Both the position numbers and the translations under genes were made by a program. From Fidelibacterota bacterium (GTDB lineage: Bacteria > Fidelibacterota > UBA8477 > JABMPR01), in NCBI GenBank assembly GCA_013203185.1, contig JABMOS010000028.1:2292-66291 (forward strand): DNA of 64,000 bases. The letters are read 5' to 3'. The notes under the pieces were generated by a model. It saw nothing but the letters and a program-made list of their open reading frames with translations, was not told the origin of the DNA and did not search any database. Of the stretch, positions 9,668 to 25,568 are shown one piece after another (within the stretch, counting starts at the first letter, position 1; each line of letters begins with the position of its first letter).

Positions 9668-12328
9668 ATGGCACAAGAACTCAGCAAACGTTATGACGCC
9701 TCTCTCATTGAGGATAAATGGTACCAGCATTGGCTGGAGCAAAATTACTTCCATTCCGAACCGGATGAGACCAAGAAACCCTATACCATTGTTATCCCAC
9801 CACCCAATGTGACAGGGATTCTCACTCTGGGTCATGTACTTAACAATACCATGCAGGACATCCTCATTCGCTGGCGTCGTATGCAGGGCCGTGAGGCTTG
9901 CTGGATCCCTGGTACTGATCATGCCTCCATTGCCACAGAAACCAAAGTAGTGAACATGCTCCGCGAAAAGGGCATCACCAAACATGAGATTGGTCGAGAC
10001 GCCTTCCTGGTACATGCCTGGGAATGGAAAGAAAAATACGGTGGTATTATTATCGAGCAGCTCAAAAAGCTGGGTGCCTCTTGTGATTGGGAGCGGGAAC
10101 GCTTCACCATGGATGATGACTATTACAAGGCTGTCCTTCATTCTTTTGTTGAACTCTATAACGCTGGTTACATCTACCGCGGTAAACGTCTGGTAAACTG
10201 GTGTCCCAAGACCAAGTCTGCCATCTCCGATGAAGAAGTCATCTACCAGGAACGCAACAGTCATCTCTGGCACATGCGTTACCCGATTAAGGATTCAGAT
10301 GATTATCTCGTCGTGGCAACGACTCGACCTGAAACCATGTTAGGTGATACCGGGGTTGCCGTCCATCCTGATGATGAGCGCTACCAGCACCTCATTGGCA
10401 AACATGTGATTTTACCGCTGGTTGGACGTGAAATCCCCATTTTCGCTGATGAATATGTGGATAAGGATTTTGGAACCGGTTGCGTAAAAATCACGCCATC
10501 CCACGATCCCAATGATTGGGAAATGGGGAAGCGTCACTCCCTCGAATTCATCAACATCTTTAATGAAGATGCCTCCATGAATAACAATGTCCCAGGAAAA
10601 TTTATTGGCCTGGATCGTTTTGAAGCCCGTGAAGTTGTGATTGAACAACTTAAAGAGCTCAATCTTATGGAAAAAATTGAAGAGCATGTCCACAAAGTAG
10701 GATACTCCGAACGCGGCAATGTTCCCATTGAACCTTATGAGTCTGAACAATGGTTCATGAATATGACTGAATTGGTCAAACCTGCGCTCCAGGCAGTCCG
10801 TGACGACAAAATAAAATTTCATCCCGCCCACTGGACCAAGACCTATGAACACTGGATGACCAACATCAAGGATTGGTGCATCAGTCGTCAATTATGGTGG
10901 GGTCACCGTATTCCGGTGTACACCTGTCAGGGTTGTAATGAAATCATGGTTCAGGTGGAAACGCCCTCCGTTTGTAGCAACTGTGGATCAGACAAACTAC
11001 ATCAGGATGAAGACGTTCTGGACACCTGGTCATCTTCCTGGTTATGGCCCTTCGCCGTACACCAATGGCCAGAGGATAGCAAAGATCTGGATTATTATTA
11101 TCCTACCAATGATCTGGTTACTGGTCCTGATATTATCTTTTTCTGGGTAGCTCGGATGATCATGGCTGGTTATCAGTTTAAGGGCGACATTCCTTTTGAA
11201 AATGTCTATTTCACCAGCATCATTCGAGATGGTGATGGACGCAAAATGTCCAAGTCCCTGGGAAATTCACCTGATCCACTCGATCTCATTTCAAAATATG
11301 GGGCAGATGCCTTGCGTTTTGGTGTCATGCTAATCGCTCCTAAAGGCCAGGACATCCTTTTTGTCGAGGAGCGTCTGGATGTAGCTCGTAATTTTATGAA
11401 CAAGGTCTGGAATGCCAGTCGCTTTGTTCTCATGAATAAAGATTTTGAACTCACATCTGATCACCTCAATCCTGAAAAATGGCAAGACCTTGAGCTTCCC
11501 GATCGTTGGATTCTTCACCGCCTTAATGTGACCATCGCACGAGTAACCAAGCAGCTGGAGAACTTCTCCTTTGATGAAACTGCGCGATCTCTCTGGGACT
11601 TTATCTGGAATGACTTCTGTGACTGGTACATCGAGATGATCAAGATGCGTTTGTATGATGGAACCGAGGCTCAAAAACAAACGGTTATGTCTGTGGCAAT
11701 CTATGTGTTGCGTGATATCATGAAAATGCTCCATCCCTATGCTCCTTTCATGAGTGAGGAAATCTGGCAGCAGGTCAAGTTGGCCGATGAACCCGATCTC
11801 ATTGTGGCACAGTGGCCAGAGGTGAAAGAGGTATTTGATGCCCCCTCCGAGGCCAAGGAAACCGACTTTCTAAAGAAAGTAATTACCGCCGTACGAACAG
11901 TTCGCTCCGAGATGAATGTGCCCCCATCACAAGCTATAAAATTGGTTGGTCGTGTGCATAGTCAGGCCCAGTTAGATATTTTAACAAAAACCAAAGCAAC
12001 CATTGCCAAACTCACCCGCTGTGATGAATTCACGCTGGGTCTTGATGTGGAGAAGCCAGGTTTTGCTGCTTCTGCCATGGTGGAGAAGATGGAGCTGTTT
12101 ATTCCTCTGGAAGGTCTGATTGACCTGGAAAAGGAAATAGAGCGGCTTGAAAAAGAAATCACAACCACTGAAGGTCTGCTGAAGTCGGTTCAAGGCAAGT
12201 TGACCAACAAGAATTTTGTGGACCGAGCACCTGAAGCAGTGGTAGCAAAAGAGCACGATAAATTGGATCACTATGCCCAATCTCTGGACAAGCTGAGAGA
12301 GCACCTTGAAACCATGAAAGCGTTGTAA
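9668..12328 (+). CDS. valS: Valine--tRNA ligase
   Basis: 886 aa. HIGH-region PPPNVTGILTLGHV, KMSKS motif KMSKSLGN, C-terminal coiled coil. Confidence 0.97.
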   Translation: MAQELSKRYDASLIEDKWYQHWLEQNYFHSEPDETKKPYTIVIPPPNVTGILTLGHVLNNTMQDILIRWRRMQGREACWIPGTDHASIATETKVVNMLREKGITKHEIGRDAFLVHAWEWKEKYGGIIIEQLKKLGASCDWERERFTMDDDYYKAVLHSFVELYNAGYIYRGKRLVNWCPKTKSAISDEEVIYQERNSHLWHMRYPIKDSDDYLVVATTRPETMLGDTGVAVHPDDERYQHLIGKHVILPLVGREIPIFADEYVDKDFGTGCVKITPSHDPNDWEMGKRHSLEFINIFNEDASMNNNVPGKFIGLDRFEAREVVIEQLKELNLMEKIEEHVHKVGYSERGNVPIEPYESEQWFMNMTELVKPALQAVRDDKIKFHPAHWTKTYEHWMTNIKDWCISRQLWWGHRIPVYTCQGCNEIMVQVETPSVCSNCGSDKLHQDEDVLDTWSSSWLWPFAVHQWPEDSKDLDYYYPTNDLVTGPDIIFFWVARMIMAGYQFKGDIPFENVYFTSIIRDGDGRKMSKSLGNSPDPLDLISKYGADALRFGVMLIAPKGQDILFVEERLDVARNFMNKVWNASRFVLMNKDFELTSDHLNPEKWQDLELPDRWILHRLNVTIARVTKQLENFSFDETARSLWDFIWNDFCDWYIEMIKMRLYDGTEAQKQTVMSVAIYVLRDIMKMLHPYAPFMSEEIWQQVKLADEPDLIVAQWPEVKEVFDAPSEAKETDFLKKVITAVRTVRSEMNVPPSQAIKLVGRVHSQAQLDILTKTKATIAKLTRCDEFTLGLDVEKPGFAASAMVEKMELFIPLEGLIDLEKEIERLEKEITTTEGLLKSVQGKLTNKNFVDRAPEAVVAKEHDKLDHYAQSLDKLREHLETMKAL

Positions 12329-12443
12329 AATATTTTCCACCATGGACTAGGCAGGGATTCGAAACGAAGTAAGCCGAGCGTAGCGCAGGCAATCCCTGCT
12401 CGGGGGACACGAAAAAACGCGTCAGAATTACAAGAGGAGCAAA

Positions 12444-14078
12444 ATGAAGACCAGAAACCTGGCCATATTATTCTTAAGTATACTTCTTCTCGCCACTTGC
12501 AAACCTGAAGAGAAACCAAAGCTAGTTGTCGTCATAGTTGTCGACCACCTTGCTCATTTTACCTACGAACATTACAAGCCGGTTTTTACCCAGGGTTTTA
12601 AATGGCTGGCTGACCATGGTAATAGCTTTGATAATGCCCATTACGAACATGGCTACTGCGCAACAGGACCAGGACACTTTGTCCTTGGTTCTGGACTAAA
12701 CCCTGGTCCAGCTGGCGTTTTGGGGAACTACTGGTATGATCGTGTCCAGAAAAAGGATGTTTATTGTGTGGGCGATCCCGACGCCAATGAATTGGATATC
12801 CCTGCAAATCAGGTGTCCTATAACAAGGTTAATGGCACAAGCTTTGGAGATTGGCTAAAAGTCGCTTCACCCCGATCAAAGGTCTATGGTGTGTCCACCA
12901 AGGACAGGTCTGCAATTATGATGTCAGGAAAAAATCCTGACCTGGCACTGTGGTACAATTACCGCGGGTCGTTTACCACGACTGATTATTACACTGATAC
13001 AATCCCCTCCTGGCTACACGACTTCAACAAAAATTTTGATGTTCTAGGATATCGAGATTCTGTCTGGAATACTAATATTGATATAGAACTCCTTGCAGAA
13101 TATACCCATGGTGATTCTTTCTATGGTGAATCAGATCGCTTTGAAAAGGATATCTATAGCCCGGTTTTCCCTATTGGATATGAGGCGGATTGGGACGATG
13201 AGAAGGTCTATGGGGAATTTCCTGGACGTCCCTGGATGGATCGTGCTGTTCTAGACTTGGCATCAACCATTGTTCAAACTGCTAATCTGGGTCAGGATGA
13301 TGCTCCTGATGTGCTGAATATTAGCCTATCCACAATGGATTGGTTAGCTCATTATTACGGACCCTTTTCCCACGAGGTGATGGATCATCTGGTAAAAGTA
13401 GATGGCTATCTCATGAACTTTATTGAATTTCTGGATCAAAACGTTGGTCTTGAGCACGTGACCTTTGTTCTTTCTTCTGACCATGGTGGGTTGCCCCTCC
13501 CGGAACACTGGACCCATGTCATGAAGAAATCTGGTGGTCGTGTGGATGAAGCGCGCTATCAGGCGACCCGCAATAAGGCCTATGCTGAGCTGGATTCGCT
13601 CTATGGAAGTCATGATTTTATTCACCGACAAGGCTCAAGCTACTACTATAACTTCTCAATGATGGATTCAATTGGCGTCCAGTCAGTCTTGGTAGATTCA
13701 GTTCTCCAGACTTATATGGAATCAATAGAGGGTGTATATCGTCTCTATACCAAAAAAGAACTCCTGGCTGCGACCCCAGACGATTATCTGGCTTATCGAC
13801 TTAGAAATTTCATGCATCCAGAATTAAGCCCGGACTTATACACTTTGCTGGAAGAGGGATGGTTATTCCGCAATCCATATGGCACGTCACACAGCACCCC
13901 CTATGAATATGATAGCCATGTTCCTCTCATATTCAGTTCGGCAAAACTGCAACCCACAAGCATCATGGATTCTGTGGCCATCCTGGATATGTCTGCCACG
14001 ATTGGTGATATCCTCGGTGTGGAACCCCTGAACAATATTGATGGAAAAAGCCTCCTCTCTCGTTTGATTTCTAACTAA
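12444..14078 (+). CDS. Alkaline-phosphatase-superfamily lipoprotein (type I phosphodiesterase / nucleotide pyrophosphatase-like)
   Basis: Lipobox LLATC, VVVIVVDHLAHF, SSDHGG metal-site motif. 544 aa. Confidence 0.7.
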   Translation: MKTRNLAILFLSILLLATCKPEEKPKLVVVIVVDHLAHFTYEHYKPVFTQGFKWLADHGNSFDNAHYEHGYCATGPGHFVLGSGLNPGPAGVLGNYWYDRVQKKDVYCVGDPDANELDIPANQVSYNKVNGTSFGDWLKVASPRSKVYGVSTKDRSAIMMSGKNPDLALWYNYRGSFTTTDYYTDTIPSWLHDFNKNFDVLGYRDSVWNTNIDIELLAEYTHGDSFYGESDRFEKDIYSPVFPIGYEADWDDEKVYGEFPGRPWMDRAVLDLASTIVQTANLGQDDAPDVLNISLSTMDWLAHYYGPFSHEVMDHLVKVDGYLMNFIEFLDQNVGLEHVTFVLSSDHGGLPLPEHWTHVMKKSGGRVDEARYQATRNKAYAELDSLYGSHDFIHRQGSSYYYNFSMMDSIGVQSVLVDSVLQTYMESIEGVYRLYTKKELLAATPDDYLAYRLRNFMHPELSPDLYTLLEEGWLFRNPYGTSHSTPYEYDSHVPLIFSSAKLQPTSIMDSVAILDMSATIGDILGVEPLNNIDGKSLLSRLISN

Positions 14079-14204
14079 GATTTCAACCATGATAATTGCT
14101 TAGACACCTTTTGTAGGGCACTTCATTGTGCCCTAAATCATTGTTATTAAGTGGCAAGGCCTTATATTCCAAATCATCATAGATGTGGCATAGGGAGGTG
14201 TATC

Positions 14205-15095
14205 ATGCGAGCACAAAAATATCGATTTCCAATCGTGGTGATCCAGATGATTTGTTTGCTAGCGCTTCTCCAGCAGTGTGCCTGGCTTGTTGGCGACAAA
14301 GCCTCTGAGGATATAGTAAAACCTCGCCCAGTAGGGGGATATGAAACCCTGAGCACACGCATCCATTATCCCAGGGCCATTCGAGAGGCTGGCATTGAAG
14401 GGACTGTGACCGTTAACGCCCTCATTTCAATTGAAGGTCAGGTGAAGCAAACCCGGGTTATGAAATCCCTCCACCCGGAATTGGATCAGATTGTGACCAA
14501 CGCCATCAAACGTACCGCCTTTGAGCCGGCAACCAGGGCTGGCAAACCAGAAGAGGTCTGGATATCCATTCCATTCATTTTTGCTTTCAAAGATTGGTCA
14601 TCAAAAGACACACCATTCAAATCTTTCATCATGACTATCCATCCTGATCCAGCATACAAGAATTTTGAAGTTGAAATTGAGGGACAATTAAAAGATGGCC
14701 TGGAATGGCCTCAACGTTTTGAATGCCTGCTACCCTTTAATGCCTCCCAACCCTGGGTTCATGCTGGAGATGGTACGGCCCCCATTTCGGGGATTATGAA
14801 TGATGATAGGGGGGAGTGGTTAATCTTTCAAGTATCCAGCAGGGACCTGTCTTTCGGCTTCACCTATAAGGCCATGGATGAAGTATATAACCAGAAATTT
14901 TTATATGAATTCACCATGAATCACGCCCTCCCCGATTGGGTTTTGAGGGTGGTCTATGGCAGCCAGACAGTAAAATTTACACAAACACCAGATAGGACGA
15001 CCACCCTGGACAATGGGGAGACCCAGTTTGAATATGATTTTAGTGCCCAGGATACCTACGAGTCGAGGTATTTGGACATTGAACTTCAGAAATAG
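14205..15095 (+). CDS. TonB C-terminal-domain protein carrying an extra uncharacterised ~170 aa C-terminal domain
   Basis: ATG at 14205 with GGGAGG upstream. N-terminal TM segment. IHYPRAIREAGIEGTVTVNALISIEGQV...LDQIVTNAIKRTAFEPATRAGKPEEVWISIPFIF matches TonB_C. No Pro-rich spacer. Confidence 0.65.
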   Translation: MRAQKYRFPIVVIQMICLLALLQQCAWLVGDKASEDIVKPRPVGGYETLSTRIHYPRAIREAGIEGTVTVNALISIEGQVKQTRVMKSLHPELDQIVTNAIKRTAFEPATRAGKPEEVWISIPFIFAFKDWSSKDTPFKSFIMTIHPDPAYKNFEVEIEGQLKDGLEWPQRFECLLPFNASQPWVHAGDGTAPISGIMNDDRGEWLIFQVSSRDLSFGFTYKAMDEVYNQKFLYEFTMNHALPDWVLRVVYGSQTVKFTQTPDRTTTLDNGETQFEYDFSAQDTYESRYLDIELQK

Positions 15096-15252
15096 GATGT
15101 CGAGATATAGATGACAAGAATCATCCTTGACAAAGCATGCCTACAAAGCAACATTTAGAGACTTGTTTAGAATCAGCAAAAATTTGTGTATGCAGCATAA
15201 TGTTTACTGCTAGAATCGTCATTTTTAACTGAATAAAACGGAAGAAAAAGCT

Positions 15253-15789
15253 ATGGAAAAAGTACAGGGATATACCAGAAAAAAGACAATCATGGAGCAA
15301 TACCCCAGCCGACAAGCCCTGGTGTATTCTGGAGCGGCATTTCTTATCTTAGTCACAGGGCTAAGAACCGTTCTTTCTGTAGCAGAGGAAGGCTTCGGCT
15401 TTATAGAGTTTGTAACCATTGGCGCCCTGGCTGTAGAGTTCAGCCTCTTGCTTCTATATGCATTGACCATTTATCAGGCAGGAAAAGAAACTTTTCTGAT
15501 CACGCTTGAAGAAGAAGCAGCCGAAATGGAGGGTGGCGGGGAATCCGCCGATGGTAGCCCTGCCCCTGTGAAAGAGTTTGCTGTGCAGTCTGCAGATGTT
15601 CCCGAAGTTGCAAAAGAAATCAACAAGTTTACCAAACAAGCCACTGTCCTCATTGATCGGCTCGCAAAAAATGCAGAGCAAAGCGAGAATTTGAATCAAC
15701 ACCTGAAAGAACTGGCTGATGAGCAGATCAATATTCGGGTCCGCAATGAGATTCAACGATTGTTAAGCGCTAATATGAGTGCCAAATAA
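15253..15789 (+). CDS. GldL/PorL-like inner-membrane protein (T9SS/gliding motor A-type subunit homologue); tentative
   Basis: Two TM helices, VYSGAAFLILVTGLRTVL and TIGALAVEFSLLLLYAL, followed by a cytoplasmic coiled coil. GldL TM1 has Y..GAAVVI.GALFK and GldL/PorL TM2 carries a buried Glu (GldL ...GTEAL.., PorL ..LVEVVV..). Here both YS.GAA...I and the intramembrane Glu (AVEF) are present. Confidence 0.5.
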   Translation: MEKVQGYTRKKTIMEQYPSRQALVYSGAAFLILVTGLRTVLSVAEEGFGFIEFVTIGALAVEFSLLLLYALTIYQAGKETFLITLEEEAAEMEGGGESADGSPAPVKEFAVQSADVPEVAKEINKFTKQATVLIDRLAKNAEQSENLNQHLKELADEQINIRVRNEIQRLLSANMSAK

Positions 15790-15807
15790 ACCGACAGGAG
15801 TAGCCGC

Positions 15808-17220
15808 ATGGCTCGCAAGAAAAAGTTCCAAGCTCGTGTCGAAGTTTATTTTATCATTTATATCGCCACGATTGTCAGCTTCTTCGCTATCGAAGGTGAA
15901 GTAAAACATTTCAAAGATAACCAGAAGAAAATTTTACTGGAAGTATCTAAAGATAAGATCCAGAATCTTGTTAGAATTCGGAATGCCACCGATATTCACA
16001 GCAAAGACACCATCAACTTGAAGGTCTCACTTGACGGTGCGTTTTCAAAAGATTCCTTTGAGGGTATCGTCCACCTCAGCCCCATTGATGCACCAGAAGA
16101 GCTGGCGCTTAAAGATTTATCTTACAACCTGGCTCCCAAAAATCATGATCCAGACAATAAGACCTTTATTGCAGTCATTCCCAAATCAGATTTTGATTTA
16201 AAGGCTGAAATTCTATATCGTATGTCAGCGGATATTAGCGTGATGCCCGATGAGGAGTTAGTCCGGTTGGAATTGGAGAAGTCGTATTCAGATAAAACCA
16301 TTGTCCACAAGATCATGGATGCCATGACTGATGTGGGAAAAATTTCCCTGGAAAAAAAATTCCAAAACACACTGGATCCTGCTGGTGGGGCCATTCAGGC
16401 GCCTTTCACCATTACGGTGGACCGCCCCCGGGTCAGCATTGTTGAGGGATTACCCTGGGAAGTCCGGGTTATTATCGGTGGTATAGTCGATTCAGATGAT
16501 CTGGAGATTTCAGCCATTAAGGGTGGAAATCTCATTGGAAATCTCAGTGCCAGCACACCAGTTACAACCGTCTCAGGTAGAGGTCGCAAAGATGGTCAGA
16601 TCACCCTGCGGGGAACCAGGCTTTCTGATGAAGAATATGTCGATGTTGACTTCCAGCTTCAGGTGAGACCTCCCGTTTGGCAAAAGCCACCTTCGGTAAG
16701 CGAAGCCTACGTAGGCGACCCCTTTATCTTTGAAGGTGCACTAAGAGATATACCTTCCTCAGAGACATCTGTCCGAGTTGGTGGAACCGCAGTACGTGGC
16801 GGCATAATGCCTGGTACCGTTGCACAGCTACAAGATTTATCTGAAGAAGGCAATATAACCTTCCAGGTTCTGGTGGATGGTCGTGAAGTCAAGGGCATGA
16901 ATCATTCAGTCACAGTAGTAAAACCCCCAGCACCCAAGGTTTCAACCAATCCAGTAGGTCGCGATGGGAATTACCTAACCTTTGAGATTACCACTTATGG
17001 CAAGAACAATAGTATTCGACGCTTCAGGAAGAAAGGTGGCATCGGATCAAATCGCCAAATGGGAGAGGCTCAGGTTCTGGGAAGTCGTAAGATCTATCGC
17101 TGGGAAGTTGAACTTGAGGAACCCCTGGACAATGTTGAATCTCAGGAAATCAAGTTTAGCGTCGATGATCAAAACAAGAGTGCAACATCATACCGCAAAA
17201 TTTTTATCTATAACTACTAA
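15808..17220 (+). CDS. GldM/PorM-like bitopic periplasmic protein (T9SS/gliding motor B-type subunit homologue); tentative
   Basis: Single N-terminal TM segment, RVEVYFIIYIATIVSFFAIEGEV, with Arg and Tyr spaced R-x7-Y as in GldM (R9...Y17: RQKMINLMYLVFIAMLALNVSKEV). Then about 430 aa of beta-rich, Ig-like periplasmic sequence. 470 aa, against 513 for GldM. Confidence 0.5.
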   Translation: MARKKKFQARVEVYFIIYIATIVSFFAIEGEVKHFKDNQKKILLEVSKDKIQNLVRIRNATDIHSKDTINLKVSLDGAFSKDSFEGIVHLSPIDAPEELALKDLSYNLAPKNHDPDNKTFIAVIPKSDFDLKAEILYRMSADISVMPDEELVRLELEKSYSDKTIVHKIMDAMTDVGKISLEKKFQNTLDPAGGAIQAPFTITVDRPRVSIVEGLPWEVRVIIGGIVDSDDLEISAIKGGNLIGNLSASTPVTTVSGRGRKDGQITLRGTRLSDEEYVDVDFQLQVRPPVWQKPPSVSEAYVGDPFIFEGALRDIPSSETSVRVGGTAVRGGIMPGTVAQLQDLSEEGNITFQVLVDGREVKGMNHSVTVVKPPAPKVSTNPVGRDGNYLTFEITTYGKNNSIRRFRKKGGIGSNRQMGEAQVLGSRKIYRWEVELEEPLDNVESQEIKFSVDDQNKSATSYRKIFIYNY

Positions 17221-17270
17221 AGGAAAGACGTCGAATATAATATGTTTGAAATGATAAGAGGGAGGGTCCT

Positions 17271-18575
17271 GTGAAAATACGAAACCTCATAACTTCATTT
17301 ATTATGCTTGTCTTTGTATCCACACTGTGGGCACAAGGATTTCAGGAAACGGGCAAGCTGGAATGGGTTGTTAAAGATCGTGAATTTAGCCGAAGCTTCA
17401 TGGAAGCCTACATCGATACCCTTATGGAGATTGATGATATGGCCGAATTGGAAGTTCAGGAAACTGATGAACTACGAGTGATTGTCGGCATCGATGTGGA
17501 AGGCCACGCCACCCTGGAAAGCATTTATGCTAAAGGACGCAGTGGTGTCTTGAACAAGCTGGTAACAGCGGTGTTGGATAGCATGGATGTAGAAATGGTT
17601 CAGCGCATTCAAAGTCGTAAATACAACTGGGACTATCTTGCCGCTGTGGATGTTGGCGGTGGCCGTGGTGATGTCATCAACGTTTTTGAGGAACGCAGCA
17701 ACAAGCAGGTCCGCGATGCTTTCTGGTGGACACATCGCCGCGTAGATATTTCCGTTTTTCCTCGAATGTTTATTCGTGTAAATCCCAATTTTGCTTTTGC
17801 CACGGAATTTGGACGACAGGATCTGGGTTTTCCTGCCGCAGCTTCCCGGACCCTGAACATGGGTCTGGCCACAGAAGTCTTAAAATTTTATGTGACGCTG
17901 CCTGCTTCCTATTTGAATCTCATGAAGAGTAGTAATTCTCCCCTTGAAGGAACATTCGGTGGTGTCTTGAAATTTGACTCCCCCAATTTTGGTGGTAGCC
18001 TGTCTTTTCAAGACATGAACTTTTTAGGAAATACAGATACAACCGGCTTCCTGAATCCTTCAAATGTGGTCTATAACCCCTCATCTGGCCAATTCTATTA
18101 TAGCTTCACCAGCCGTATTGGAACCACTGCCGACCAGCCAGGTTTTGTCCCCTTAGGATCACTACGCCTCCAGATAGGGTTTAGCTATATGCAATTTGCC
18201 TATGGTGATGTCCTGGATACTGAAGCTGGTGTTTCAGATGGTATTGGTTCCTTCAGGTTGCTGGACAAAAGTGATCCCCTGGAATCGGTATTTGGTCTGT
18301 TCAGAGCAGAGTATGCTTCGGACATGAACAACCGGTATTTCAATCGATTTAAATTGGCCGCTCAACTCAATATTGGCTTAAATGGCTTTGGTGGTTTTGA
18401 TTTCACCACAGCCTATACTATCACAGAATGGCTGGGTGTGAACTTGAACATGACCTACTTCTGGAGTCCCATGACTTTCAATTATCCTGATCCGACTCCA
18501 GGCTCAACCGAAACGCTTAGTTATGATTGGGAACCAGGTTTCTTCATTGTCCCATCCATAGCAGTGTACTTCTAG
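17271..18575 (+). CDS. Secreted putative outer-membrane beta-barrel protein (PorV/PorQ-like?), hypothetical
   Basis: SPI signal peptide ...LWAQG. Gly/aromatic-rich alternating amphipathic strands. Ends in ...IAVYF, a C-terminal Phe typical of OMP barrels. Confidence 0.4.
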   Translation: MKIRNLITSFIMLVFVSTLWAQGFQETGKLEWVVKDREFSRSFMEAYIDTLMEIDDMAELEVQETDELRVIVGIDVEGHATLESIYAKGRSGVLNKLVTAVLDSMDVEMVQRIQSRKYNWDYLAAVDVGGGRGDVINVFEERSNKQVRDAFWWTHRRVDISVFPRMFIRVNPNFAFATEFGRQDLGFPAAASRTLNMGLATEVLKFYVTLPASYLNLMKSSNSPLEGTFGGVLKFDSPNFGGSLSFQDMNFLGNTDTTGFLNPSNVVYNPSSGQFYYSFTSRIGTTADQPGFVPLGSLRLQIGFSYMQFAYGDVLDTEAGVSDGIGSFRLLDKSDPLESVFGLFRAEYASDMNNRYFNRFKLAAQLNIGLNGFGGFDFTTAYTITEWLGVNLNMTYFWSPMTFNYPDPTPGSTETLSYDWEPGFFIVPSIAVYF

Positions 18576-18581
18576 GAGGAT

Positions 18582-19856
18582 TTGAAAATGACTACATCAA
18601 TTCGCAAAATGCTCCTGGTGACACTCACATTGCTTGTCTCACTCTCTACAGTATGGGCCCAGCCCAAAGCTCCTCCAACGTTGGACCCCCGACGCTTTGA
18701 TGCGTGGACTGTTGAGTATGAACCCTTCCGTCTGCTTATAGAAAATGCCGTGGAAGAGTATATTACCCTTAACGATACGGATTTACCCCCCATTGCATCT
18801 ACAGACAACGTCATTGCCGTCAGATCCAAGTCGGGTCAACGACAGCTGTATCAAATTCGCTATGGAACCGTCTCAGAAGGGTACAACGTTATCGACAATA
18901 TGGAGGTGATGTGGGTGCTGGGTTCGACCCTGGCTCAGACCATTTCCGAGAAAGAAACCTATTATCACCTGGATACTTCTGAACCATATGAATCCACGAA
19001 ACATCAGCCAGAAATTGATTATCTGGAAGTGGAGTCTTTTTGGACCCACACTGATTTACAGATTGGTACGGATCGCCTGGTTTATCTCTTTGGGAAGTCT
19101 GGAGGAATAACCGTTGAATGGGGCAATGAGCTTTTGGGTCGTCCCTATGGTGAAGCTGGCTTTGCCCGGCTTGGCGTGATTACTCCCATCTTCAAAATGG
19201 GAATTCAAGTTCCCTCGCCCTCCATTCCACTAGGTTTCCGTACAGGTACAGACGATGCTGATGATCACCTTACTGGTGGTATAGGTGGTTTTGGTGCCTT
19301 TAAATACAAAGTTTTGTATGGAGAGTTGTTCTTCCAGTCCCTAGAGGCCGGCCTGGCCAGTGGCAGCTTTATCAATAGCTATGATTTAGGTGGTTTGATG
19401 AATCTCAGCTTTAACACCACCCTATCAGGTTTCCCCTTGGGCAAAGAAAAACGCCTTTTTGCAGGTGCCTTGCAGATCCGCCTCGGGGGTGTTATCGCCC
19501 GCGTTGACCATAGTAATATTGTAGATGATCGTATCAGCTTCCAGAATCTGAAACGCAGCTACAATGTGGCGACTGGAGACACCACGGAGGAATTTACAAA
19601 CGGGGAAGCAGCCTCACTGGAGGAGTCAGGACTTTTCTTTCGTCTCGATTATGCATCGCCACTAATAAAGAAACGCTACCCGCGTCATGAAGCTGTGTTT
19701 CAGGTTTCGGGTCCCAGTATCATGACAAAATACACATATAATGTCAACAAGACTTTAGGGTTGCCCCTTACTGTGCTAGTCTATACAGCGGATAATGAGT
19801 GGACACCCAATGCCGCCATACTGGTCGGCTTTAAATTGAGGCTTGATCAAAATTAA
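18582..19856 (+). CDS. Secreted putative outer-membrane beta-barrel protein, paralogue-like to the preceding gene
   Basis: SPI signal peptide ...VWAQP. Similar size (424 aa) and Gly/aromatic-rich strand pattern. Followed by a terminator. Confidence 0.4.
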   Translation: MKMTTSIRKMLLVTLTLLVSLSTVWAQPKAPPTLDPRRFDAWTVEYEPFRLLIENAVEEYITLNDTDLPPIASTDNVIAVRSKSGQRQLYQIRYGTVSEGYNVIDNMEVMWVLGSTLAQTISEKETYYHLDTSEPYESTKHQPEIDYLEVESFWTHTDLQIGTDRLVYLFGKSGGITVEWGNELLGRPYGEAGFARLGVITPIFKMGIQVPSPSIPLGFRTGTDDADDHLTGGIGGFGAFKYKVLYGELFFQSLEAGLASGSFINSYDLGGLMNLSFNTTLSGFPLGKEKRLFAGALQIRLGGVIARVDHSNIVDDRISFQNLKRSYNVATGDTTEEFTNGEAASLEESGLFFRLDYASPLIKKRYPRHEAVFQVSGPSIMTKYTYNVNKTLGLPLTVLVYTADNEWTPNAAILVGFKLRLDQN

Positions 19857-19879
19857 CTAGTCTCAAATGTAGTAGGACA

Positions 19880-19912
19880 AAAGGGTAGGCTTGCGCCTGC
19901 CCTTTTGTTTAT
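19880..19912 (+). terminator. Rho-independent terminator closing the 14.2-19.9 kb cluster
   Basis: aaaGGGTAGGCttgcGCCTGCCCttttgttt: GC-rich stem (one G-U pair) plus a U-run. Confidence 0.6.
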
Positions 19913-20085
19913 CAATGAAGCGGCGTGTCCAGGGAAAACCCTCCCAATAATCAGCGTTTTTCATTCAAACATCACTATTTTCATGGCATTTGAATTGTTC
20001 ACTATTATTTTGGGCTGATTTCGCCGTACAAGGGGCTTCATATTTTTTCAAAAACAGATAAAATGATTATGGGGAAGAGAATAAT

Positions 20086-20589
20086 TTGCCGTTTCGATTA
20101 ACCAATGAAGGTGAATATGCCGTTCGTCTCATGGTTTATCTGGCGGGACGGGATCGTGAACAACTGGTCTCAGCCCGGGAAATAGCAGAAAACCAGAACA
20201 TCCCCCAGCGCTTTCTCAGAACCATTGTTTCTCAGTTTGTTAAGTTGGGGTTTGTCAAATCTTTTCAGGGTAATGGCGGAGGGGTTCGTCTTGCTGAAGG
20301 TGCTGAGAACAAAACATTACTGGAAATCATTGAGGCTGTTGAAGGCCCCATATATTTGAATGTCTGCATGCAGGGTGAAGTGGCTTGTCAGTTTTCCAGT
20401 CAGTGTGCTGTTCACCTTGTCTGGCATGAAGCACAAGATGCCATTCAAAAAATATTAGGTGGAAAAAAAATCAAAGAACTAGCCCAGGTGAATTTCGACC
20501 TGGCTGCCAACGGTTTCGGTGCAGGTTCTGATGCCATGTGTGGCATACCTGTGAGCACAGAAGAAACGAAAGCCCCCCGTGGCAATTAA
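20086..20589 (+). CDS. Rrf2-family (IscR/NsrR-like) Fe-S transcriptional regulator
   Basis: TTG start. wHTH N-terminus REIAENQNIPQRFLRTIVSQFVKLGFV. Three Cys spaced C-x6-C-x5-C (CMQGEVACQFSSQC), as in the cluster-ligating Rrf2 proteins. Confidence 0.8.
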   Translation: MPFRLTNEGEYAVRLMVYLAGRDREQLVSAREIAENQNIPQRFLRTIVSQFVKLGFVKSFQGNGGGVRLAEGAENKTLLEIIEAVEGPIYLNVCMQGEVACQFSSQCAVHLVWHEAQDAIQKILGGKKIKELAQVNFDLAANGFGAGSDAMCGIPVSTEETKAPRGN

Positions 20590-23026
20590 ATTTGATAAAT
20601 ACGAAACGGGTCGGGCGCCCACAGAACAGGGGAAAGTCCTGAGTTGTTTTCATTGTGGTGAACCCTGCCCGGACAACACCATATCAATTGGGGATAAAAG
20701 CTTCTGCTGCCATGGTTGTAAAACGGTTTTTGAAATTCTCAATGTCAATGAGATGTGTGACTACTATTCCATAGAGGATACCCCAGGCATAACACCCAAG
20801 CAGGATTTGATATCTGATCGGTTTGACTATCTCGATGACGAGACAGTGAGACCCCAGGTAATTGATTTTTCAGATGGCAAAACTGAGAAGGTGACTTTCC
20901 ATACGCCCACCATGCACTGTGCTTCTTGTATCTGGCTCCTGGAAAAACTGCATGAGATGGATTCACGAATTTTCAGCTCTCTGGTCAATTTCCCCAGGAA
21001 ACAAGTGACCATCACTTTTAACCGTGAACAAATGAAGCTCAGCGAGACAGCCGCACTGCTCTCATCACTGGGCTACGAACCTCTGGTTAGCCTTGATACA
21101 GTTGGGAAAAGAGAACAATCCTCTGCTGAAAAGAAACTATATCTGAAGATTGGCCTGGCTGGCTTTGCTTTTGGCAATGTCATGATCCTCAGTTTTCCAG
21201 AATACCTCTCCCGGGTTGGTTCAGTCGATACCACTTTCAAGATGGTGTTTGGATATCTCAGCCTGGTTATGTCTTTACCGATTCTCATTTTCGCCACCAA
21301 AGATTATTACCAATCAGCCTGGGCCGGTATCAGAAGCCGCACGGTTAATATTGATGTCCCTATCACCTTGGGTATCGGCATGCTCTTTTTCAGGTCAGCC
21401 TGGGAAATCCTCACTCAAACTGGTGTGGGTTATCTCGACTCCTTTACTGGCCTGGTGTTCTTCCTGTTGGTGGGCCGACTCTTTCAGCAGAAGACATATG
21501 AGATGCTCTCTTTCGAACGAGATTATAAATCCTTTTTCCCGCTGTCAGTCACCCGCAAGATCAACAATGTGGAGGCTGTGGTTCCCGTCTCAAAACTGAA
21601 ACCTGGTGATCGAATTGTGGTTCGGAATCAGGAATTGATACCAGCCGATTCTGTTCTCCTTAAAACAGTTGCATATATTGATTATAGCTTTGTAAGTGGC
21701 GAATCCACCCCAGTGACAAAGAATGCTGGTGATTTTATCTACGCTGGAGGTCGCCAGGCAGGAACAACTATTGAACTGGAAGTCATAAACGAATCCTCAC
21801 AAAGCTATCTGACCCAACTCTGGAATAATGACGTCTTTAGTAAACCAAGATTTTCAAGGTTGAATCAGCTGGTAAATCAGGTGAGTCACTACTTTACATT
21901 TGGCGTTTTAGCCATTGCAATTATTGCATCCATTTATTGGCTTCAAATTGATACTGCCACGGGCATCAAAGTATTTACATCTGTCCTGATTGTGGCCTGT
22001 CCCTGTGCCCTGGCTTTGTCCTCGCCTTTTGCACTGGGGACCACCATGCGCATTTTTGGCCGCAAAGGTTTTTATGTGAAAAATACGGATGCAGTTGAAG
22101 CCCTCTCCAAGATTAACACTATAGTGATGGACAAAACAGGCACCTTGACAGAATCCCGACAGGAAACCATAGAATTCTCAGGAGAGGTGCTTTCCCATGA
22201 GGATCAGGAAGTTATCAAGTCCCTGGTCCAGCATTCCACGCACCCCTTGAGTCAAAAAATATTTCAAGCACTGCATATTCATTCTGTTCATCCAGTAGAC
22301 AAATATAAGGAAATATCAGGTCGGGGAATTCAGGGTGTCATCGGTGGTCACAGCATCAAATTGGGCTCTGCCAAATGGTTGGGGATTCAAGAATCCAGCA
22401 ATGATGCTGAAGATATGAAAACACGGGTTTTTCTCAGTATGAATGATGAAGTCAGGGGCTCATTCCTAATTGCAAATGTGTTTCGCAAGGGCTTACGTCC
22501 ATTGCTCTCTGAATTGAATAAGGAATTCGACATGTATCTCCTCTCTGGTGATACAGAACGCGAAAAAGCCAAGTTGGTCAATCTCTTTGGAAGCAATGAA
22601 AACTTGCTCTTTCGACAGACCCCTGAGAATAAAATGGATTTTGTTGCAAAGGTTCAGGGAGAGGGCGCTCATGTTCTTATGGTGGGGGATGGTCTCAATG
22701 ATGCCGGCGCTTTGAGGGCCAGTGAAGTCGGTATCGCCATCACTGATGATGTCTCTGCCTTTTCTCCTGCCAGTGATGGAATCCTTACTGGTAAAAACCT
22801 GCACTTACTGGGGTCATTTATAAAAATGTCCAAGGCGACCACCTCGATTATCGTAGCCAGTTTTGTAATCTCAATTATTTATAATGTGGTTGGTGTTAGT
22901 TTCGCAGTAGCGGGAAAGCTGTCCCCACTGGTGTCGGCTATTCTTATGCCAGCCAGCTCTATTTCTGTCGTGGCTTTCACCACATTTACAACGAGCTTGC
23001 GAGCCAGAATGATGAGATTAACTTGA
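20579..23026 (+). CDS. ccoI: Copper-translocating P1B-type ATPase CcoI/FixI (cbb3 oxidase assembly)
   Basis: GTG start overlapping the rrf2 stop. N-terminal CxxC pairs (CFHCGEPC, CCHGC), HMA site MHCASC, CPC motif VACPCAL, DKTGTLT, GDGLNDAGAL. Confidence 0.9.
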   Translation: MAIKFDKYETGRAPTEQGKVLSCFHCGEPCPDNTISIGDKSFCCHGCKTVFEILNVNEMCDYYSIEDTPGITPKQDLISDRFDYLDDETVRPQVIDFSDGKTEKVTFHTPTMHCASCIWLLEKLHEMDSRIFSSLVNFPRKQVTITFNREQMKLSETAALLSSLGYEPLVSLDTVGKREQSSAEKKLYLKIGLAGFAFGNVMILSFPEYLSRVGSVDTTFKMVFGYLSLVMSLPILIFATKDYYQSAWAGIRSRTVNIDVPITLGIGMLFFRSAWEILTQTGVGYLDSFTGLVFFLLVGRLFQQKTYEMLSFERDYKSFFPLSVTRKINNVEAVVPVSKLKPGDRIVVRNQELIPADSVLLKTVAYIDYSFVSGESTPVTKNAGDFIYAGGRQAGTTIELEVINESSQSYLTQLWNNDVFSKPRFSRLNQLVNQVSHYFTFGVLAIAIIASIYWLQIDTATGIKVFTSVLIVACPCALALSSPFALGTTMRIFGRKGFYVKNTDAVEALSKINTIVMDKTGTLTESRQETIEFSGEVLSHEDQEVIKSLVQHSTHPLSQKIFQALHIHSVHPVDKYKEISGRGIQGVIGGHSIKLGSAKWLGIQESSNDAEDMKTRVFLSMNDEVRGSFLIANVFRKGLRPLLSELNKEFDMYLLSGDTEREKAKLVNLFGSNENLLFRQTPENKMDFVAKVQGEGAHVLMVGDGLNDAGALRASEVGIAITDDVSAFSPASDGILTGKNLHLLGSFIKMSKATTSIIVASFVISIIYNVVGVSFAVAGKLSPLVSAILMPASSISVVAFTTFTTSLRARMMRLT

Positions 23027-23045
23027 TGAAAAGTGAGCTTCACAA

Positions 23046-23246
23046 TTGTATGTAATGTTTATTCTGATGGCCTTTAGTCTAGGGGCTTCCCTTCTTTTTT
23101 TGGGAGCCTATATCTGGTCGGTTAAAAGCGGACAGTTTGATGACAAATACACACCCTCAGTACGAATGTTATTCGAAGATAAAAAAATATCAAAAAAAAC
23201 GGAACCCGGTCTTTATTCGGGAGATAAAAACGAGGAGATTAAATAA
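23046..23246 (+). CDS. ccoS: cbb3 oxidase maturation protein CcoS/FixS
   Basis: 66 aa with a single TM segment. The motif ...KSGQFDD... fits the FixS family. Position is between ccoI and ccoN. Confidence 0.7.
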   Translation: MYVMFILMAFSLGASLLFLGAYIWSVKSGQFDDKYTPSVRMLFEDKKISKKTEPGLYSGDKNEEIK

Positions 23247-25363: not shown

Positions 25364-25380
25364 GGAAGGATTATTTTCGG

Positions 25381-25566: not shown

Positions 25567-25568
25567 TA

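What the first reader, a model, noticed from the sequence alone, without database searches (positions are those of the whole stretch)
14205..19912. Five-gene cluster encoding a divergent GldL/GldM (PorL/PorM)-like motor pair, preceded by a TonB-C-domain protein and followed by two beta-barrel-like secreted paralogues
The small gene at 15253..15789 and the following gene at 15808..17220 carry the defining residue spacings of GldL/PorL and GldM/PorM (detailed in the features and the next finding). No gldK/porK or gldN/porN-like gene lies between or beside them. Instead a TonB_C-domain protein precedes them and two signal-peptide, Gly/aromatic-rich, OMP-like proteins follow, with a terminator at 19880. 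This looks like a compact, non-canonical T9SS-like (or TonB-like) energy-transducing module. It is distinct from the canonical gldKLMN arrangement and may be uncharacterised.
Basis: partly seen in the sequence, partly recalled or inferred. Interest (0 to 1): 0.85.

Follow-up and report, generated by a model that had tools for sequence, protein, structure and literature searches.

The report
GldLM-like motor with two barrel partners
A conserved, unannotated four-gene module in Marinimicrobia and some related bacteria pairs two inner-membrane proteins that look like a distant cousin of the proton-driven GldL/GldM motor with two outer-membrane barrel proteins, so it may be an undescribed envelope-spanning machine.

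Summary
The five ORFs, the TonB_C domain, the signal peptides, the paralogy of the last two genes and the terminator are all real. The organism is a Marinimicrobia (SAR406) bacterium.

The conserved unit has four genes, not five: a 178-aa protein with two TM helices (L-like), a 470-aa protein with one TM helix (M-like), and two paralogous outer-membrane barrel proteins. This order holds in 56 Marinimicrobia species. It also holds in distant relatives from Kapabacteria, Chlorobi and Bacteroidota MAGs. The TonB_C gene occurs only in the window's close clade.

No curated profile or PDB sequence search recognises GldL, GldM, ExbB or ExbD. Fold searches return only generic tandem Ig domains.

Profile-profile comparison through the distant relatives gives moderate, specific support for remote homology:
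- L-like TM hairpin vs GldL/PorL: P 7e-4, and 1.2e-5 against one GldL.
- M-like periplasmic domains vs PorM: P 2.5e-4.
- ExbB/TolQ, MotA and ExbD/TolR controls: no comparable match.

Membrane-embedded charged residues are conserved throughout: L-like Arg38 and Glu62, and M-like Glu12, which GldM lacks.

Best reading: a GldLM-type ion-driven motor coupled to an outer-membrane barrel pair, without PorK/PorN. Its cellular function is unknown, and whether a canonical T9SS motor coexists was not testable.

The parts
14114..14135 (+). Terminator-like hairpin after the upstream phosphodiesterase gene. It marks the upstream boundary of the region.
   Evidence: Scan (8-bp stem, 5 GC pairs, loop of 6); sequence.
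14205..15095 (+). 296-aa protein: an N-terminal signal or anchor segment, a TonB_C domain at residues 53-126, and a roughly 170-aa C-terminal part of unknown fold. It is a neighbour, not part of the conserved module.
   Evidence: Pfam TonB_C E=8.8e-17. NCBIfam tonB_Cterm E=6e-13. RBS GGGAGG before the ATG. Present only in the 14 loci of the close clade (82% or more M-like identity), where unrelated neighbours such as PDE, ValRS and CopA are also syntenic. Absent from L003/L015 (60% clade) and from all more distant loci. A 157-bp gap separates it from the next gene.
15253..15789 (+). L-like subunit, 178 aa. Basic cytoplasmic N-terminus, TM1 (about 19-46), short periplasmic loop, TM2 (about 50-75) with invariant mid-membrane Glu62, disordered linker, and a long cytoplasmic helix 113-177 ending in the conserved motif VRxEIQRLL.
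   Evidence: AF2 model, (pLDDT 66 overall, 76-86 over the hairpin). V24 Y25 G27 A28 L31 R38 E62 L66 are invariant across Marinimicrobia and 7 distant relatives. Marinimicrobia vs distant L-like: hhalign probability 98%, 2.8e-14. vs GldL/PorL: P=0.03 for Marinimicrobia only, 3.5e-3 broad, 7e-4 distant set, 1.2e-5 vs the 7sax GldL. No Pfam/NCBIfam/PDB hit.
15808..17220 (+). M-like subunit, 470 aa. Basic N-terminus, one TM (13-28) opened by the motif [RK]x[ED][IVL]YFxxY[LI], helix 29-52, a mixed alpha/beta domain 56-184, and three Ig-like beta-sandwich domains 201-287, 299-371 and 383-467.
17271..18575 (+). OMP1, 434 aa. Signal peptide (...LWAQ), a roughly 130-aa N-terminal periplasmic region, and a Gly/aromatic-rich C-terminal part ending ...IAVYF. 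Predicted outer-membrane beta-barrel.
   Evidence: C-terminal Phe in 50/54 family members; no hydrophobic helix after the signal peptide; alternating-hydrophobicity segments. Directly follows the M-like gene in almost all loci long enough to show it (the exceptions are two distant L+M-only loci). No Pfam/PDB relatives, and only one family member has a weak OMP_b-brl hit, E=0.006.
18582..19856 (+). OMP2, 424 aa. Paralogue of OMP1 with signal peptide (...VWAQ). In other Marinimicrobia clades the orthologue is 760-790 aa with N-terminal cadherin-type repeats.
   Evidence: BLASTP E=3e-6 vs OMP1. Reciprocal jackhmmer hits around 1e-71. C-terminal Phe in 31/50; the window clade ends ...RLDQN. Cadherin Pfam hits on the L001 orthologue.
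19880..19912 (+). Intrinsic-terminator-like hairpin (AAAGGGTAGG / CCTGCCCTTT, loop CTTGCG) followed by TGTTTAT. Marks the end of the operon.
   Evidence: Read directly from the sequence. Not listed by the consensus scan.

Best explanation
Genes 15253..19856 form one operon for an envelope-spanning machine. Its inner-membrane part is a distant relative, or at least a close architectural analogue, of the GldL/GldM (PorL/PorM) proton-driven 5:2 rotary motor.

Inferred mechanism:
- Several L-like subunits (probably five) surround the TM helices of an M-like dimer.
- Protonation and deprotonation of the invariant mid-membrane Glu62 of L-like drives rotation or a power stroke. It would act with Arg38 of L-like and the basic/acidic pair R/K10-Glu12 at the cytoplasmic end of the M-like helix.
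- The M-like periplasmic rod (one alpha/beta domain plus three Ig-like domains) carries this movement across the periplasm.
- It delivers the movement to the N-terminal periplasmic regions of the two paralogous outer-membrane barrels, OMP1 and OMP2. These take the place that the PorK/PorN ring has in the type IX secretion system.

Shown: gene order and conservation, topology, domain layout, conserved charged TM residues, and weak-to-moderate specific profile similarity to GldL and PorM.

Inferred: stoichiometry, ion coupling, the M-OMP contact and the cellular output. The neighbouring cadherin, He_PIG and NHL surface-protein genes in other clades suggest adhesin export or movement as the output.

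The TonB_C gene upstream is a clade-specific neighbour and not a component.
For: Conservation:
- The order L-like, M-like, OMP1, OMP2 holds in nearly all 56 Marinimicrobia species loci.
- It also holds in Kapabacteria, Chlorobi and Bacteroidota MAG loci L060-L063, L065 and L067.
- Gene gaps are 18, 50 and 6 bp, with a terminator after OMP2.

Topology and layout match GldL (two TMH plus cytoplasmic tail) and GldM (one TMH plus a periplasmic four-domain rod): and bioRxiv 10.1101/2020.05.11.089193.

Conserved membrane charges:
- L-like R38 and E62 are invariant.
- M-like E/D12 in 43/45, with Y14, F15 and Y18 nearly invariant.

Homology signal for L-like:
- Distant L-like vs GldL/PorL: P=7e-4 local and 1.7e-5 global.
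- vs Sphingobacterium GldL: probability 81%, P=1.2e-5, over a 41-column alignment of the TM hairpin broken only by two one-residue gaps. It pairs GA/GA, R/K and E/E.
- Column-shuffle null: 0 of 100 reach the real score; the reversed template scores 11.3 against 20.9.
- Controls ExbB/TolQ and MotA: P 0.17-0.89.
- The window's L-like is an unambiguous homologue of the distant set (2.8e-14).

Homology signal for M-like:
- Distant M-like vs PorM: P=2.5e-4, collinear over D2-D3.
- A GldM HMM puts only M-like ORFs in its top 12 of 2060 ORFs.

OMP1 and OMP2 have signal peptides and a C-terminal Phe beta-signal.
Against: - No curated profile (Pfam GldL_N PF22827, the GldM families, NCBIfam PorL/GldL) and no PDB sequence search detects either protein, even at E up to 10.
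- With Marinimicrobia sequences alone the hhalign signal is absent or marginal: L-like P=0.03-0.13, M-like P=0.81.
- hhalign probabilities stay below the usual 90% level, and about 15 comparisons were tried for each protein.
- M-like D1 is mixed alpha/beta, whereas GldM D1 is helical.
- The M-like TM is not similar to the GldM TM, and it carries a Glu where GldM has Lys11.
- The TM region of the M-like model has pLDDT below 50.
- Stoichiometry, ion flow and the contact with the OMPs are untested.
- The barrel fold of OMP1/OMP2 rests on sequence features only.
Confidence: 0.55

Rival explanations
1. The pair is simply the lineage's own, highly diverged PorL/PorM. In this reading it is the motor of the ordinary type IX secretion system of Marinimicrobia, working with PorK/PorN, SprA and PorV encoded elsewhere. 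OMP1/OMP2 would be accessory T9SS outer-membrane proteins in the manner of PorP/SprF or PorQ.
For: - SAR406 genomes carry many Por-secretion C-terminal sorting-domain proteins, so they need a T9SS motor (PMC5596340).
- A PorV gene lies 4.5 kb from the module in L060/L061, and a Por_Secre_tail protein sits next to it in L063.
- The weak homology signal points specifically to GldL/PorL and PorM.
Against: - No porK/porN-like gene is adjacent in any of about 65 loci, whereas porKLMN/gldKLMN are normally contiguous (established knowledge of T9SS operons).
- OMP1/OMP2 do not match PorP_SprF, PorV or any other T9SS Pfam family at E up to 1.
- Divergence from GldL/GldM is far beyond that seen among PorLM and GldLM, which still share Pfam families (one search shows PF22827 on the GldL proteins it listed, all from Flavobacterium).
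- I could not test whether a canonical motor coexists in the same genomes.
Confidence: 0.2
2. The module is a passive envelope-spanning scaffold or tether with no ion-driven movement, for example one that positions or assembles the two barrel proteins or holds the outer membrane. The conserved charged TM residues would only stabilise oligomerisation.
For: - Curated-profile, PDB sequence and fold searches give no family assignment.
- The M-like periplasmic part is a generic string of Ig-like domains, as in many structural proteins.
- The long coiled-coil-like tail of L-like attracts only coiled-coil hits.
Against: - An invariant Glu in the middle of TM2 plus an invariant Arg in TM1, kept from Marinimicrobia to the Chlorobi-type relatives, together with a near-invariant acidic residue at the start of the partner's single TM, is the hallmark of ion-coupled stator complexes.
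- The specific similarity to GldL, and not to the ExbB or MotA controls, argues for a motor origin.
Confidence: 0.15
3. The module is a TonB/ExbB-ExbD-type system. The TonB_C protein would be the force transducer, energised by the two membrane proteins, and would open the two downstream barrels as TonB-dependent gates.
For: - A real TonB_C domain is encoded immediately upstream in the window.
- The acidic residue at the cytoplasmic end of the single TM of M-like recalls ExbD Asp25, TolR Asp23 and MotB Asp32 (own knowledge).
Against: - The TonB_C gene is confined to the close clade, and it is missing from the 60%-identity clade and all others.
- TonB_C sits right after the N-terminal anchor, not at the end of a periplasm-spanning linker.
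- L-like has two TM helices, not the three of ExbB, and shows no similarity to ExbB/TolQ (P 0.32-0.89) or MotA.
- M-like shows no meaningful similarity to ExbD/TolR: P about 0.65 for the distant and broad profiles. The Marinimicrobia-only profile gives P=0.026 (probability 1.9%), but the aligned stretch is periplasmic (M-like 216-273 vs ExbD/TolR 62-116), not the TM.
- OMP1/OMP2 have no TonB_dep_Rec or Plug domains.
Confidence: 0.05

Closest known systems
GldL/GldM (PorL/PorM) motor of the type IX secretion and gliding system (PDB 6YS8, 7SAT-7SAZ, 6EY4; Pfam GldL_N PF22827 and the GldM families)
   Same: - Same gene order: small two-TM protein, then a roughly 470-510-aa single-TM protein.
- Same topology, with a cytoplasmic tail on the small subunit.
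- A four-domain periplasmic rod ending in beta-sandwich domains.
- An invariant Glu in TM2.
- A basic residue 11 positions after a conserved Gly-Ala in TM1.
- Restricted to the FCB superphylum.
- Weak-to-moderate, specific profile similarity.
   Different: - Not recognised by any curated GldL/GldM/PorL/PorM model.
- No adjacent PorK/PorN; two outer-membrane barrel paralogues follow instead.
- M-like D1 is alpha/beta rather than a helical bundle.
- The M-like TM carries a near-invariant Glu/Asp (the EVYF motif) where GldM has Lys11, and the GldM Arg9 position is not conserved.
- TM2 of L-like is about four residues longer after the Glu.
- The conserved cytoplasmic C-terminal motif differs (VRxEIxR vs ...SLNxVYGGMLSAM).
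ExbB-ExbD-TonB and TolQ-TolR-TolA
   Same: - An inner-membrane, presumably pmf-using complex that acts on outer-membrane barrels.
[quoted passage not shown]
- A TonB_C-domain gene happens to lie upstream in this window.
   Different: - The small subunit has two TM helices, not three.
- hhalign shows no meaningful similarity.
- The TonB_C gene is not conserved with the module.
- The barrels lack plug and receptor domains.
Myxococcus Agl-Glt gliding machinery (AglRQS motor, GltG/GltJ TonB_C-like proteins, outer-membrane barrels GltA/B/H/K)
   Same: - Concept: an ion-driven inner-membrane motor linked through the periplasm to several paralogous outer-membrane barrels and surface adhesins.
- NCBIfam 'AgmX/PglI C-terminal' gives a weak hit on the window's TonB_C protein (E=1.6e-5, below cut-off).
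   Different: - The Agl motor is of TolQR type.
- No sequence relation of L-like, M-like or the OMPs to Glt proteins was tested or seen.
- This comparison rests on my own knowledge and was not tested.
MotA/MotB and ZorA/ZorB 5:2 stator-type complexes
   Same: General principle: a ring of multi-TM subunits surrounds a dimer of single-TM subunits that carry a carboxylate.
   Different: - MotA and ZorA have four TM helices and large cytoplasmic domains.
- There is no similarity to MotA (P 0.17-0.53).
- M-like has no peptidoglycan-binding domain.

Membership tests
GldL/PorL | Matches the curated family model (Pfam GldL_N PF22827; NCBIfam PorL/GldL) | tested here: not met
   No hit at E up to 1 for the window protein and none at E up to 10 for 10 family members, including the distant ones. 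A profile search against the PDB GldL/PorL chains also gives no hit.
GldL/PorL | [quoted passage not shown] | tested here: met
   The AF2 model has helices 19-46 and 50-93, then a disordered linker and helix 113-177. The N-terminus is basic.
GldL/PorL | Invariant Glu in TMH2 (GldL E49) | tested here: met
   E62 is invariant in 80 Marinimicrobia and 7 distant sequences. hhalign aligns it with E49.
GldL/PorL | Conserved Tyr13 in TMH1, and Lys27/His30 at the periplasmic end | tested here: inconclusive
   Y25 is invariant but lies one residue out of register relative to the aligned Gly-Ala. R38 (K in 3 sequences) aligns with K27. There is no conserved His; only L065 has RFAH.
GldL/PorL | Statistically supported sequence homology | tested here: inconclusive
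   hhalign P=0.13 and 0.03 for Marinimicrobia only, 3.5e-3 for the broad profile, 7e-4 for the distant set, and 1.2e-5 (probability 81%) against one GldL. Shuffle and ExbB/MotA controls are negative. About 15 tests were run, and the probability is below 90% except in none.
GldM/PorM | Matches the curated family models (Pfam GldM_N, GldM_C and related; NCBIfam) | tested here: not met
   No Pfam/NCBIfam hit for the window protein, for 10 distant relatives (Pfam) or for 3 distant relatives (NCBIfam). None of the 56 homologues carries a precomputed Pfam domain. A profile search against PDB GldM/PorM chains gives no hit.
GldM/PorM | Single N-terminal TMH plus an elongated periplasmic part of four domains: D1 helical, D2-D4 beta | tested here: inconclusive
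GldM/PorM | Arg9 and invariant Tyr17 in the TMH | tested here: not met
   The window has R10 and Y18 with the same spacing. But R10 is not conserved (R 11, K 14, S 8 and others). Y18 is conserved in 44/48. TM profile comparison gives P=0.12, and 10 of 60 shuffles reach the real score. The family-specific invariants are E12, Y14 and F15.
GldM/PorM | Statistically supported sequence homology of the periplasmic domains | tested here: inconclusive
   hhalign: broad profile P=4.9e-3, distant set P=1.2e-3, vs PorM P=2.5e-4 (probability 43%), collinear over D2-D3. Marinimicrobia only gives P=0.81. A GldM HMM has best E=0.011, with its top 12 of 2060 ORFs all M-like.
Type IX secretion core (PorKLMN/GldKLMN) | Motor genes contiguous with porK/gldK and porN/gldN | tested here: not met
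   No such gene is in the window or flanks the module in about 65 loci.
5:2 ion-driven rotary motors (general class) | Pentamer of the multi-TM subunit around a dimer of the single-TM subunit, with an ion path through membrane carboxylates | not testable with these tools
Conserved membrane carboxylates are present.
ExbB/ExbD-TonB | Three-TM ExbB-like subunit, ExbD-like subunit, and a TonB with C-terminal TonB_C conserved with them | tested here: not met
   L-like has two TM helices. hhalign vs ExbB/TolQ gives P 0.32-0.89. vs ExbD/TolR it gives P about 0.65 for the distant and broad profiles; the P=0.026 for the Marinimicrobia-only profile lies in a periplasmic stretch. The TonB_C gene is absent from most loci.
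Outer-membrane beta-barrel proteins (BAM substrates) | Signal peptide, no TM helices, C-terminal aromatic beta-signal, barrel fold | tested here: inconclusive
   Signal peptides are present, and Phe is the last residue in 50/54 OMP1 and 31/50 OMP2. One weak OMP_b-brl hit. The barrel fold was not modelled.

The most novel reading that the evidence does not exclude
The four genes encode a previously undescribed envelope-spanning machine of the FCB superphylum. It would be an offshoot of the GldLM motor lineage that is wired directly to a heteromeric pair of outer-membrane barrels rather than to the PorK/PorN ring. It would coexist with, and act independently of, the type IX secretion system. Its output could be the movement or export of cadherin-type surface adhesins in abundant, uncultured ocean bacteria. 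It would also be a GldLM-type motor in which the axle subunit carries its own carboxylate, bridging the GldLM and MotB/ExbD/TolR designs.
Probability: 0.4. Interest if true: 0.85.

Novelty: new variant of a known kind. Interest (0 to 1): 0.7.

Why it matters
Only a handful of ion-driven 5:2 motor families are known: MotAB, ExbBD/TolQR, GldLM and ZorAB.

A further GldLM-related branch would show how this motor type has been re-used for a new output. This branch has a different outer-membrane partner set and a carboxylate on the axle subunit.

Its hosts matter too. Marinimicrobia (SAR406) are among the most abundant uncultured bacteria of the dark ocean and of oxygen-minimum zones. A conserved envelope machine linked in some clades to cadherin-type surface proteins bears on how they attach to or process particles.

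The family has no Pfam or NCBIfam model. Defining it would annotate genes now labelled hypothetical in these lineages: about 126 clusters at 50% identity for the M-like protein alone.

If the pair instead proves to be the only T9SS motor of these phyla, it would redefine which T9SS core components are indispensable.

Tried and rejected
- Direct hmmscan of all five proteins against Pfam and NCBIfam found only TonB_C.
- Profile searches of the L-like, M-like and OMP alignments against PDB sequences gave only coiled-coil designs, CTLA-4 and noise.
- Foldseek of the L-like model returned nothing with E below 1.
- The AFDB library was unavailable.
- The metagenome-contig scan, intended to collect diverse gldL-gldM operons, failed with an error and consumed the cap.
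- The last homologue search, made with the GldL alignment, returned only Flavobacterium sequences. The GldL profile therefore stayed at the five PDB sequences.
- hhalign of the M-like TM against the GldM TM showed no signal. A first attempt was spoiled by a 2426-aa sequence in the alignment.
- The idea that the TonB_C protein is part of the system was rejected on synteny.
- The ExbB/ExbD, TolQ/TolR and MotA readings were rejected on topology and on the hhalign controls.
- OMP1/OMP2 as PorP/SprF, PorV or PorN relatives: no Pfam hit at E up to 1 in 18 members.
- Literature searches for T9SS or gliding components in Marinimicrobia found only the report of many Por sorting-domain proteins in SAR406. 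I found no paper describing this module.
- I could not determine whether canonical gldKLMN exists elsewhere in these genomes.

Full report
**What is there.** The window carries five + strand ORFs at 14205..15095, 15253..15789, 15808..17220, 17271..18575 and 18582..19856.
- The first has a good ribosome-binding site (GGGAGG) before ATG 14205.
- The gaps between the last four genes are 18, 50 and 6 bp. A 157-bp gap separates the first gene from the second.
- A 10-bp GC-rich hairpin followed by a T-rich tail lies at 19880..19912.
- The closest homologues are named Candidatus Marinimicrobia/Neomarinimicrobiota, so the window is from a SAR406-type bacterium.
- Flanking genes are housekeeping: ValRS, a phosphodiesterase, an Rrf2 regulator, a CopA/FixI-type ATPase, cbb3 oxidase genes, an oligopeptide ABC transporter and DnaE. 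I found no T9SS gene among the window proteins I scanned, which covered most of the large ORFs.

**The conserved unit has four genes.** One scan of 185,579 species genomes with the 470-aa family found 56 loci. Nearly all are labelled Marinimicrobia.
- I called ORFs in all loci and classified them with jackhmmer. The order L-like (130-180 aa), M-like (about 465-480 aa), OMP1, OMP2 recurs in nearly every locus that is long enough.
- The TonB_C protein occurs only in the 14 loci of the close clade (82% or more M-like identity). Unrelated neighbours (phosphodiesterase, ValRS, CopA) are syntenic there too.
- The 60%-identity clade (L003, L015) lacks the TonB_C gene although it keeps Rrf2/CopA downstream.
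- Other clades have different genes in front. One has a cadherin/He_PIG lipoprotein and a TPR-HTH protein. Another has a ParA-like ATPase, a coiled-coil membrane protein and a 326-aa protein with a weak GspB/CdsD_C-like end.
- In those clades OMP2 is 760-790 aa with N-terminal cadherin repeats, and an NHL-repeat protein often follows.

**The family reaches beyond Marinimicrobia.** An exhaustive HMMER search of 1.84 billion representatives with the M-like profile found only 126 clusters.
- About twenty full-length distant members (426-518 aa) have no Pfam domains.
- Where they are named, they come from Candidatus Kapabacteria, Chlorobi/Chlorobiota and Bacteroidota MAGs.
- Five of the seven contexts I could fetch again show L-like, M-like and two proteins of about 380-420 aa with signal peptides. 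Two show only L-like plus M-like.
- A PorV gene lies 4.5 kb away in one such genome, and a Por_Secre_tail protein is adjacent in another. These organisms therefore also have type IX secretion components.
- SAR406 genomes are reported to encode many Por sorting-domain proteins (PMC5596340).

**Anatomy of the two membrane proteins.**

*L-like protein* (AF2 model, pLDDT 76-86 over the hairpin):
- It has a basic N-terminus and a TM hairpin (helices 19-46 and 50-93).
- A disordered linker follows, and then a long helix 113-177.
- Across 80 Marinimicrobia and 7 distant sequences, V24, Y25, G27, A28, L31, R38 (K in three), E62 and L66 are invariant.
- A C-terminal motif VRxE(I/L)xR is also shared.

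*M-like protein* (AF2 model, pLDDT 81.5 overall, residues 1-30 below 50):
- It has one N-terminal hydrophobic segment and a helix 29-52.
- It then has a mixed alpha/beta domain (56-184) and three beta-sandwich domains.
- Its N-terminus carries the motif [RK]-x-[ED]-[IVL]-Y-F-x-x-Y-[LI].
- E12 is acidic in 43 of 45, Y14 is kept in 44/45, F15 in 45/45 and Y18 in 44/48. R10 is not conserved.

**Tests of the GldL/GldM interpretation.**

*Curated models and fold searches fail.*
- There is no Pfam or NCBIfam hit for either protein or for their distant relatives, even at E up to 10.
- Profile searches against PDB sequences do not find the GldL/PorL or GldM/PorM chains.
- Foldseek of the L-like model returns nothing.

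*Profile-profile comparison, L-like.* I recovered the true GldL/PorL and GldM/PorM sequences from the PDB and ran hhalign.
- With Marinimicrobia sequences alone the L-like signal is marginal (P=0.13 and 0.03).
- The seven distant L-like proteins are unambiguous homologues of the window protein (probability 98%, 2.8e-14).
- Those seven give P=7e-4 local and 1.7e-5 global against the five-sequence GldL profile.
- Against the Sphingobacterium GldL of 7SAX they give P=1.2e-5, probability 81%. The 41-column alignment spans the TM hairpin with only two one-residue gaps. It pairs Gly-Ala with Gly-Ala, Arg38 with Lys27 and Glu62 with Glu49.
- On a TM-only template, a column-shuffle null never reached the real score (0 of 100). 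The reversed template scored 11.3 against 20.9.
- ExbB/TolQ and MotA controls gave P 0.17-0.89.

*Profile-profile comparison, M-like.*
- The Marinimicrobia profile alone shows nothing (P=0.81).
- The distant members are homologous to the Marinimicrobia ones at 2.7e-31. They give P=1.2e-3 against GldM/PorM and P=2.5e-4 (probability 43%) against PorM. The match is collinear over D2-D3 at nearly the same positions in the two proteins.
- An HMM built from four GldM/PorM sequences was searched over all 2060 ORFs of the held loci, which include many cadherin and Ig-domain proteins. Its twelve best hits are all M-like proteins (best E=0.011, D3-D4 region).
- ExbD/TolR gave P about 0.65 for the distant and broad profiles. 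For the Marinimicrobia-only profile it gave P=0.026 (probability 1.9%), in a periplasmic stretch rather than the TM.
- The M-like TM segment shows no similarity to the GldM TM beyond chance (P=0.12).

*Caveat on these numbers.* About 15 comparisons were made per protein, and the profiles are thin. I take this as moderate evidence, not proof. I put remote common ancestry with GldLM/PorLM at roughly 70%.

**Comparison with the functional residues of GldLM.** In GldLM, GldL E49 and GldM Y17 are invariant. [quoted passage not shown] K27 and H30 act at the periplasmic interface (bioRxiv 10.1101/2020.05.11.089193).
- The TM2 Glu and the basic residue ending TM1 are kept here.
- The TM1 Tyr is kept but is shifted by one position.
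- The His is not kept.
- In the axle subunit the Tyr (Y18) is mostly kept, but the Arg is not.
- A new near-invariant carboxylate (E12) appears where GldM has Lys11. Its position relative to the TM recalls the Asp of MotB, ExbD and TolR (own knowledge).

**The two downstream proteins.** They are paralogues.
- Both have signal peptides and no later hydrophobic helix.
- They end in Phe in 50/54 (OMP1) and 31/50 (OMP2) family members. This is the usual signature of BAM-assembled outer-membrane barrels.
- They have no Pfam or PDB relatives. One of 18 members gives a weak OMP_b-brl hit.

**Most likely mechanism.**
- The L-like and M-like proteins form a GldLM-type ion-driven motor in the inner membrane.
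- Glu62 of L-like acts as the proton-carrying residue, and Arg38 and the R/K10-Glu12 pair act as partners.
- The M-like rod transmits movement across the periplasm to the N-terminal regions of the OMP1/OMP2 barrels, which replace the PorK/PorN ring.
- The output is unknown. The cadherin, He_PIG and NHL surface proteins encoded beside the module in other clades, and the cadherin-bearing OMP2 variants, make adhesin export or movement the most plausible guess.
- Shown here: conservation, synteny, topology, domain layout, conserved membrane charges and specific weak homology.
- Inferred: stoichiometry, ion coupling, contacts and output.

**Rivals.**
- It could be the lineage's own diverged T9SS motor (0.2). 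I could not scan whole genomes for a canonical gldKLMN, so this remains open.
- It could be a passive scaffold (0.15).
- The TonB/ExbBD reading (0.05) is contradicted by synteny, topology and the controls.

**Verdict.**
- It is wrong about the TonB_C gene and overstated about the 'defining' residues.
- The module is a new variant of a known kind of machine. It is conserved in a major uncultured marine phylum and lacks any family model.

**Scores.** Interest is 0.7. Confidence in the best explanation is 0.55.

Noticed in passing
window 20086..28346: A complete cbb3-oxidase maturation and structural cluster follows the module. It comprises an Rrf2 regulator, a CopA/FixI-type P-type ATPase (815 aa), a 66-aa FixS/CcoS-like ORF (23046..23246), a fused CcoN-CcoO (705 aa, COX1+FixO), CcoP/FixP, FixG/CcoG and FixH. 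The fused N-O subunit and the Rrf2 gene in front are the unusual points.
   Followed up: partly
L020-L022, L025, L029, L030, L042, L056 (genes upstream of the L-like gene, e.g. L020 584..4552): In one Marinimicrobia clade four co-oriented genes precede the module. They are a 242-aa protein with an N-terminal hydrophobic segment, a ParA/MinD-type ATPase (273 aa), a 476-aa coiled-coil protein with a C-proximal TM, and a 326-aa TM protein whose C-terminus weakly resembles GspB/T2SSB and CdsD_C (sub-threshold). This may be an assembly or positioning platform for the machine.
   Followed up: partly
L001, L027, L033 and similar loci (e.g. L001 4288..17072): In another clade the module sits among surface-protein genes. 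Upstream are a TPR protein with a C-terminal HTH and a cadherin/He_PIG lipoprotein. OMP2 itself carries N-terminal cadherin repeats (about 777 aa). Downstream is a roughly 769-aa NHL-repeat protein with a C-terminal hydrophobic anchor.
   Followed up: partly
L060, L063, L064, L066, L067 (L-like genes, e.g. L060 9147..10004): The Kapabacteria/Chlorobi-type L-like proteins carry an extra conserved cytoplasmic N-terminal domain of about 95 aa (motifs GRxxLQKYW and HPLGxRxGxRxWMEEI). The Marinimicrobia proteins lack it, and it has no Pfam match.
   Followed up: no
L003 1..1352: Genes with FliF (faint hit) and FliG domains lie 6-7 kb upstream of the module in the 60%-identity relative. This suggests that some module-carrying Marinimicrobia-like genomes also encode flagella.
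   Followed up: no
L064 and L066: Two distant relatives have only the L-like and M-like genes, placed after an LptF/LptG-family permease gene, with no adjacent OMP1/OMP2. In L066 an OEP/TolC-family gene follows. The barrel partners may be encoded elsewhere or replaced.
   Followed up: no
window 51062..52477 (- strand): A PIN-domain plus PhoH-like ATPase fusion protein (471 aa).
   Followed up: no
window 3157..7036: An ABC-2 type exporter (ATPase 315 aa, permease 383 aa) lies near a divergent 314-aa ORF on the opposite strand. That ORF has a sub-threshold ABC_transp_aux (GldG-type) hit (E=7e-4). The ATPase scores best as the DrrA subfamily, with GldA second and below its cut-off. There is no real evidence for a gliding ABC transporter.
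   Followed up: partly
window 1..64000: ARAGORN finds no tRNA or tmRNA gene in the whole 64-kb window.
   Followed up: yes
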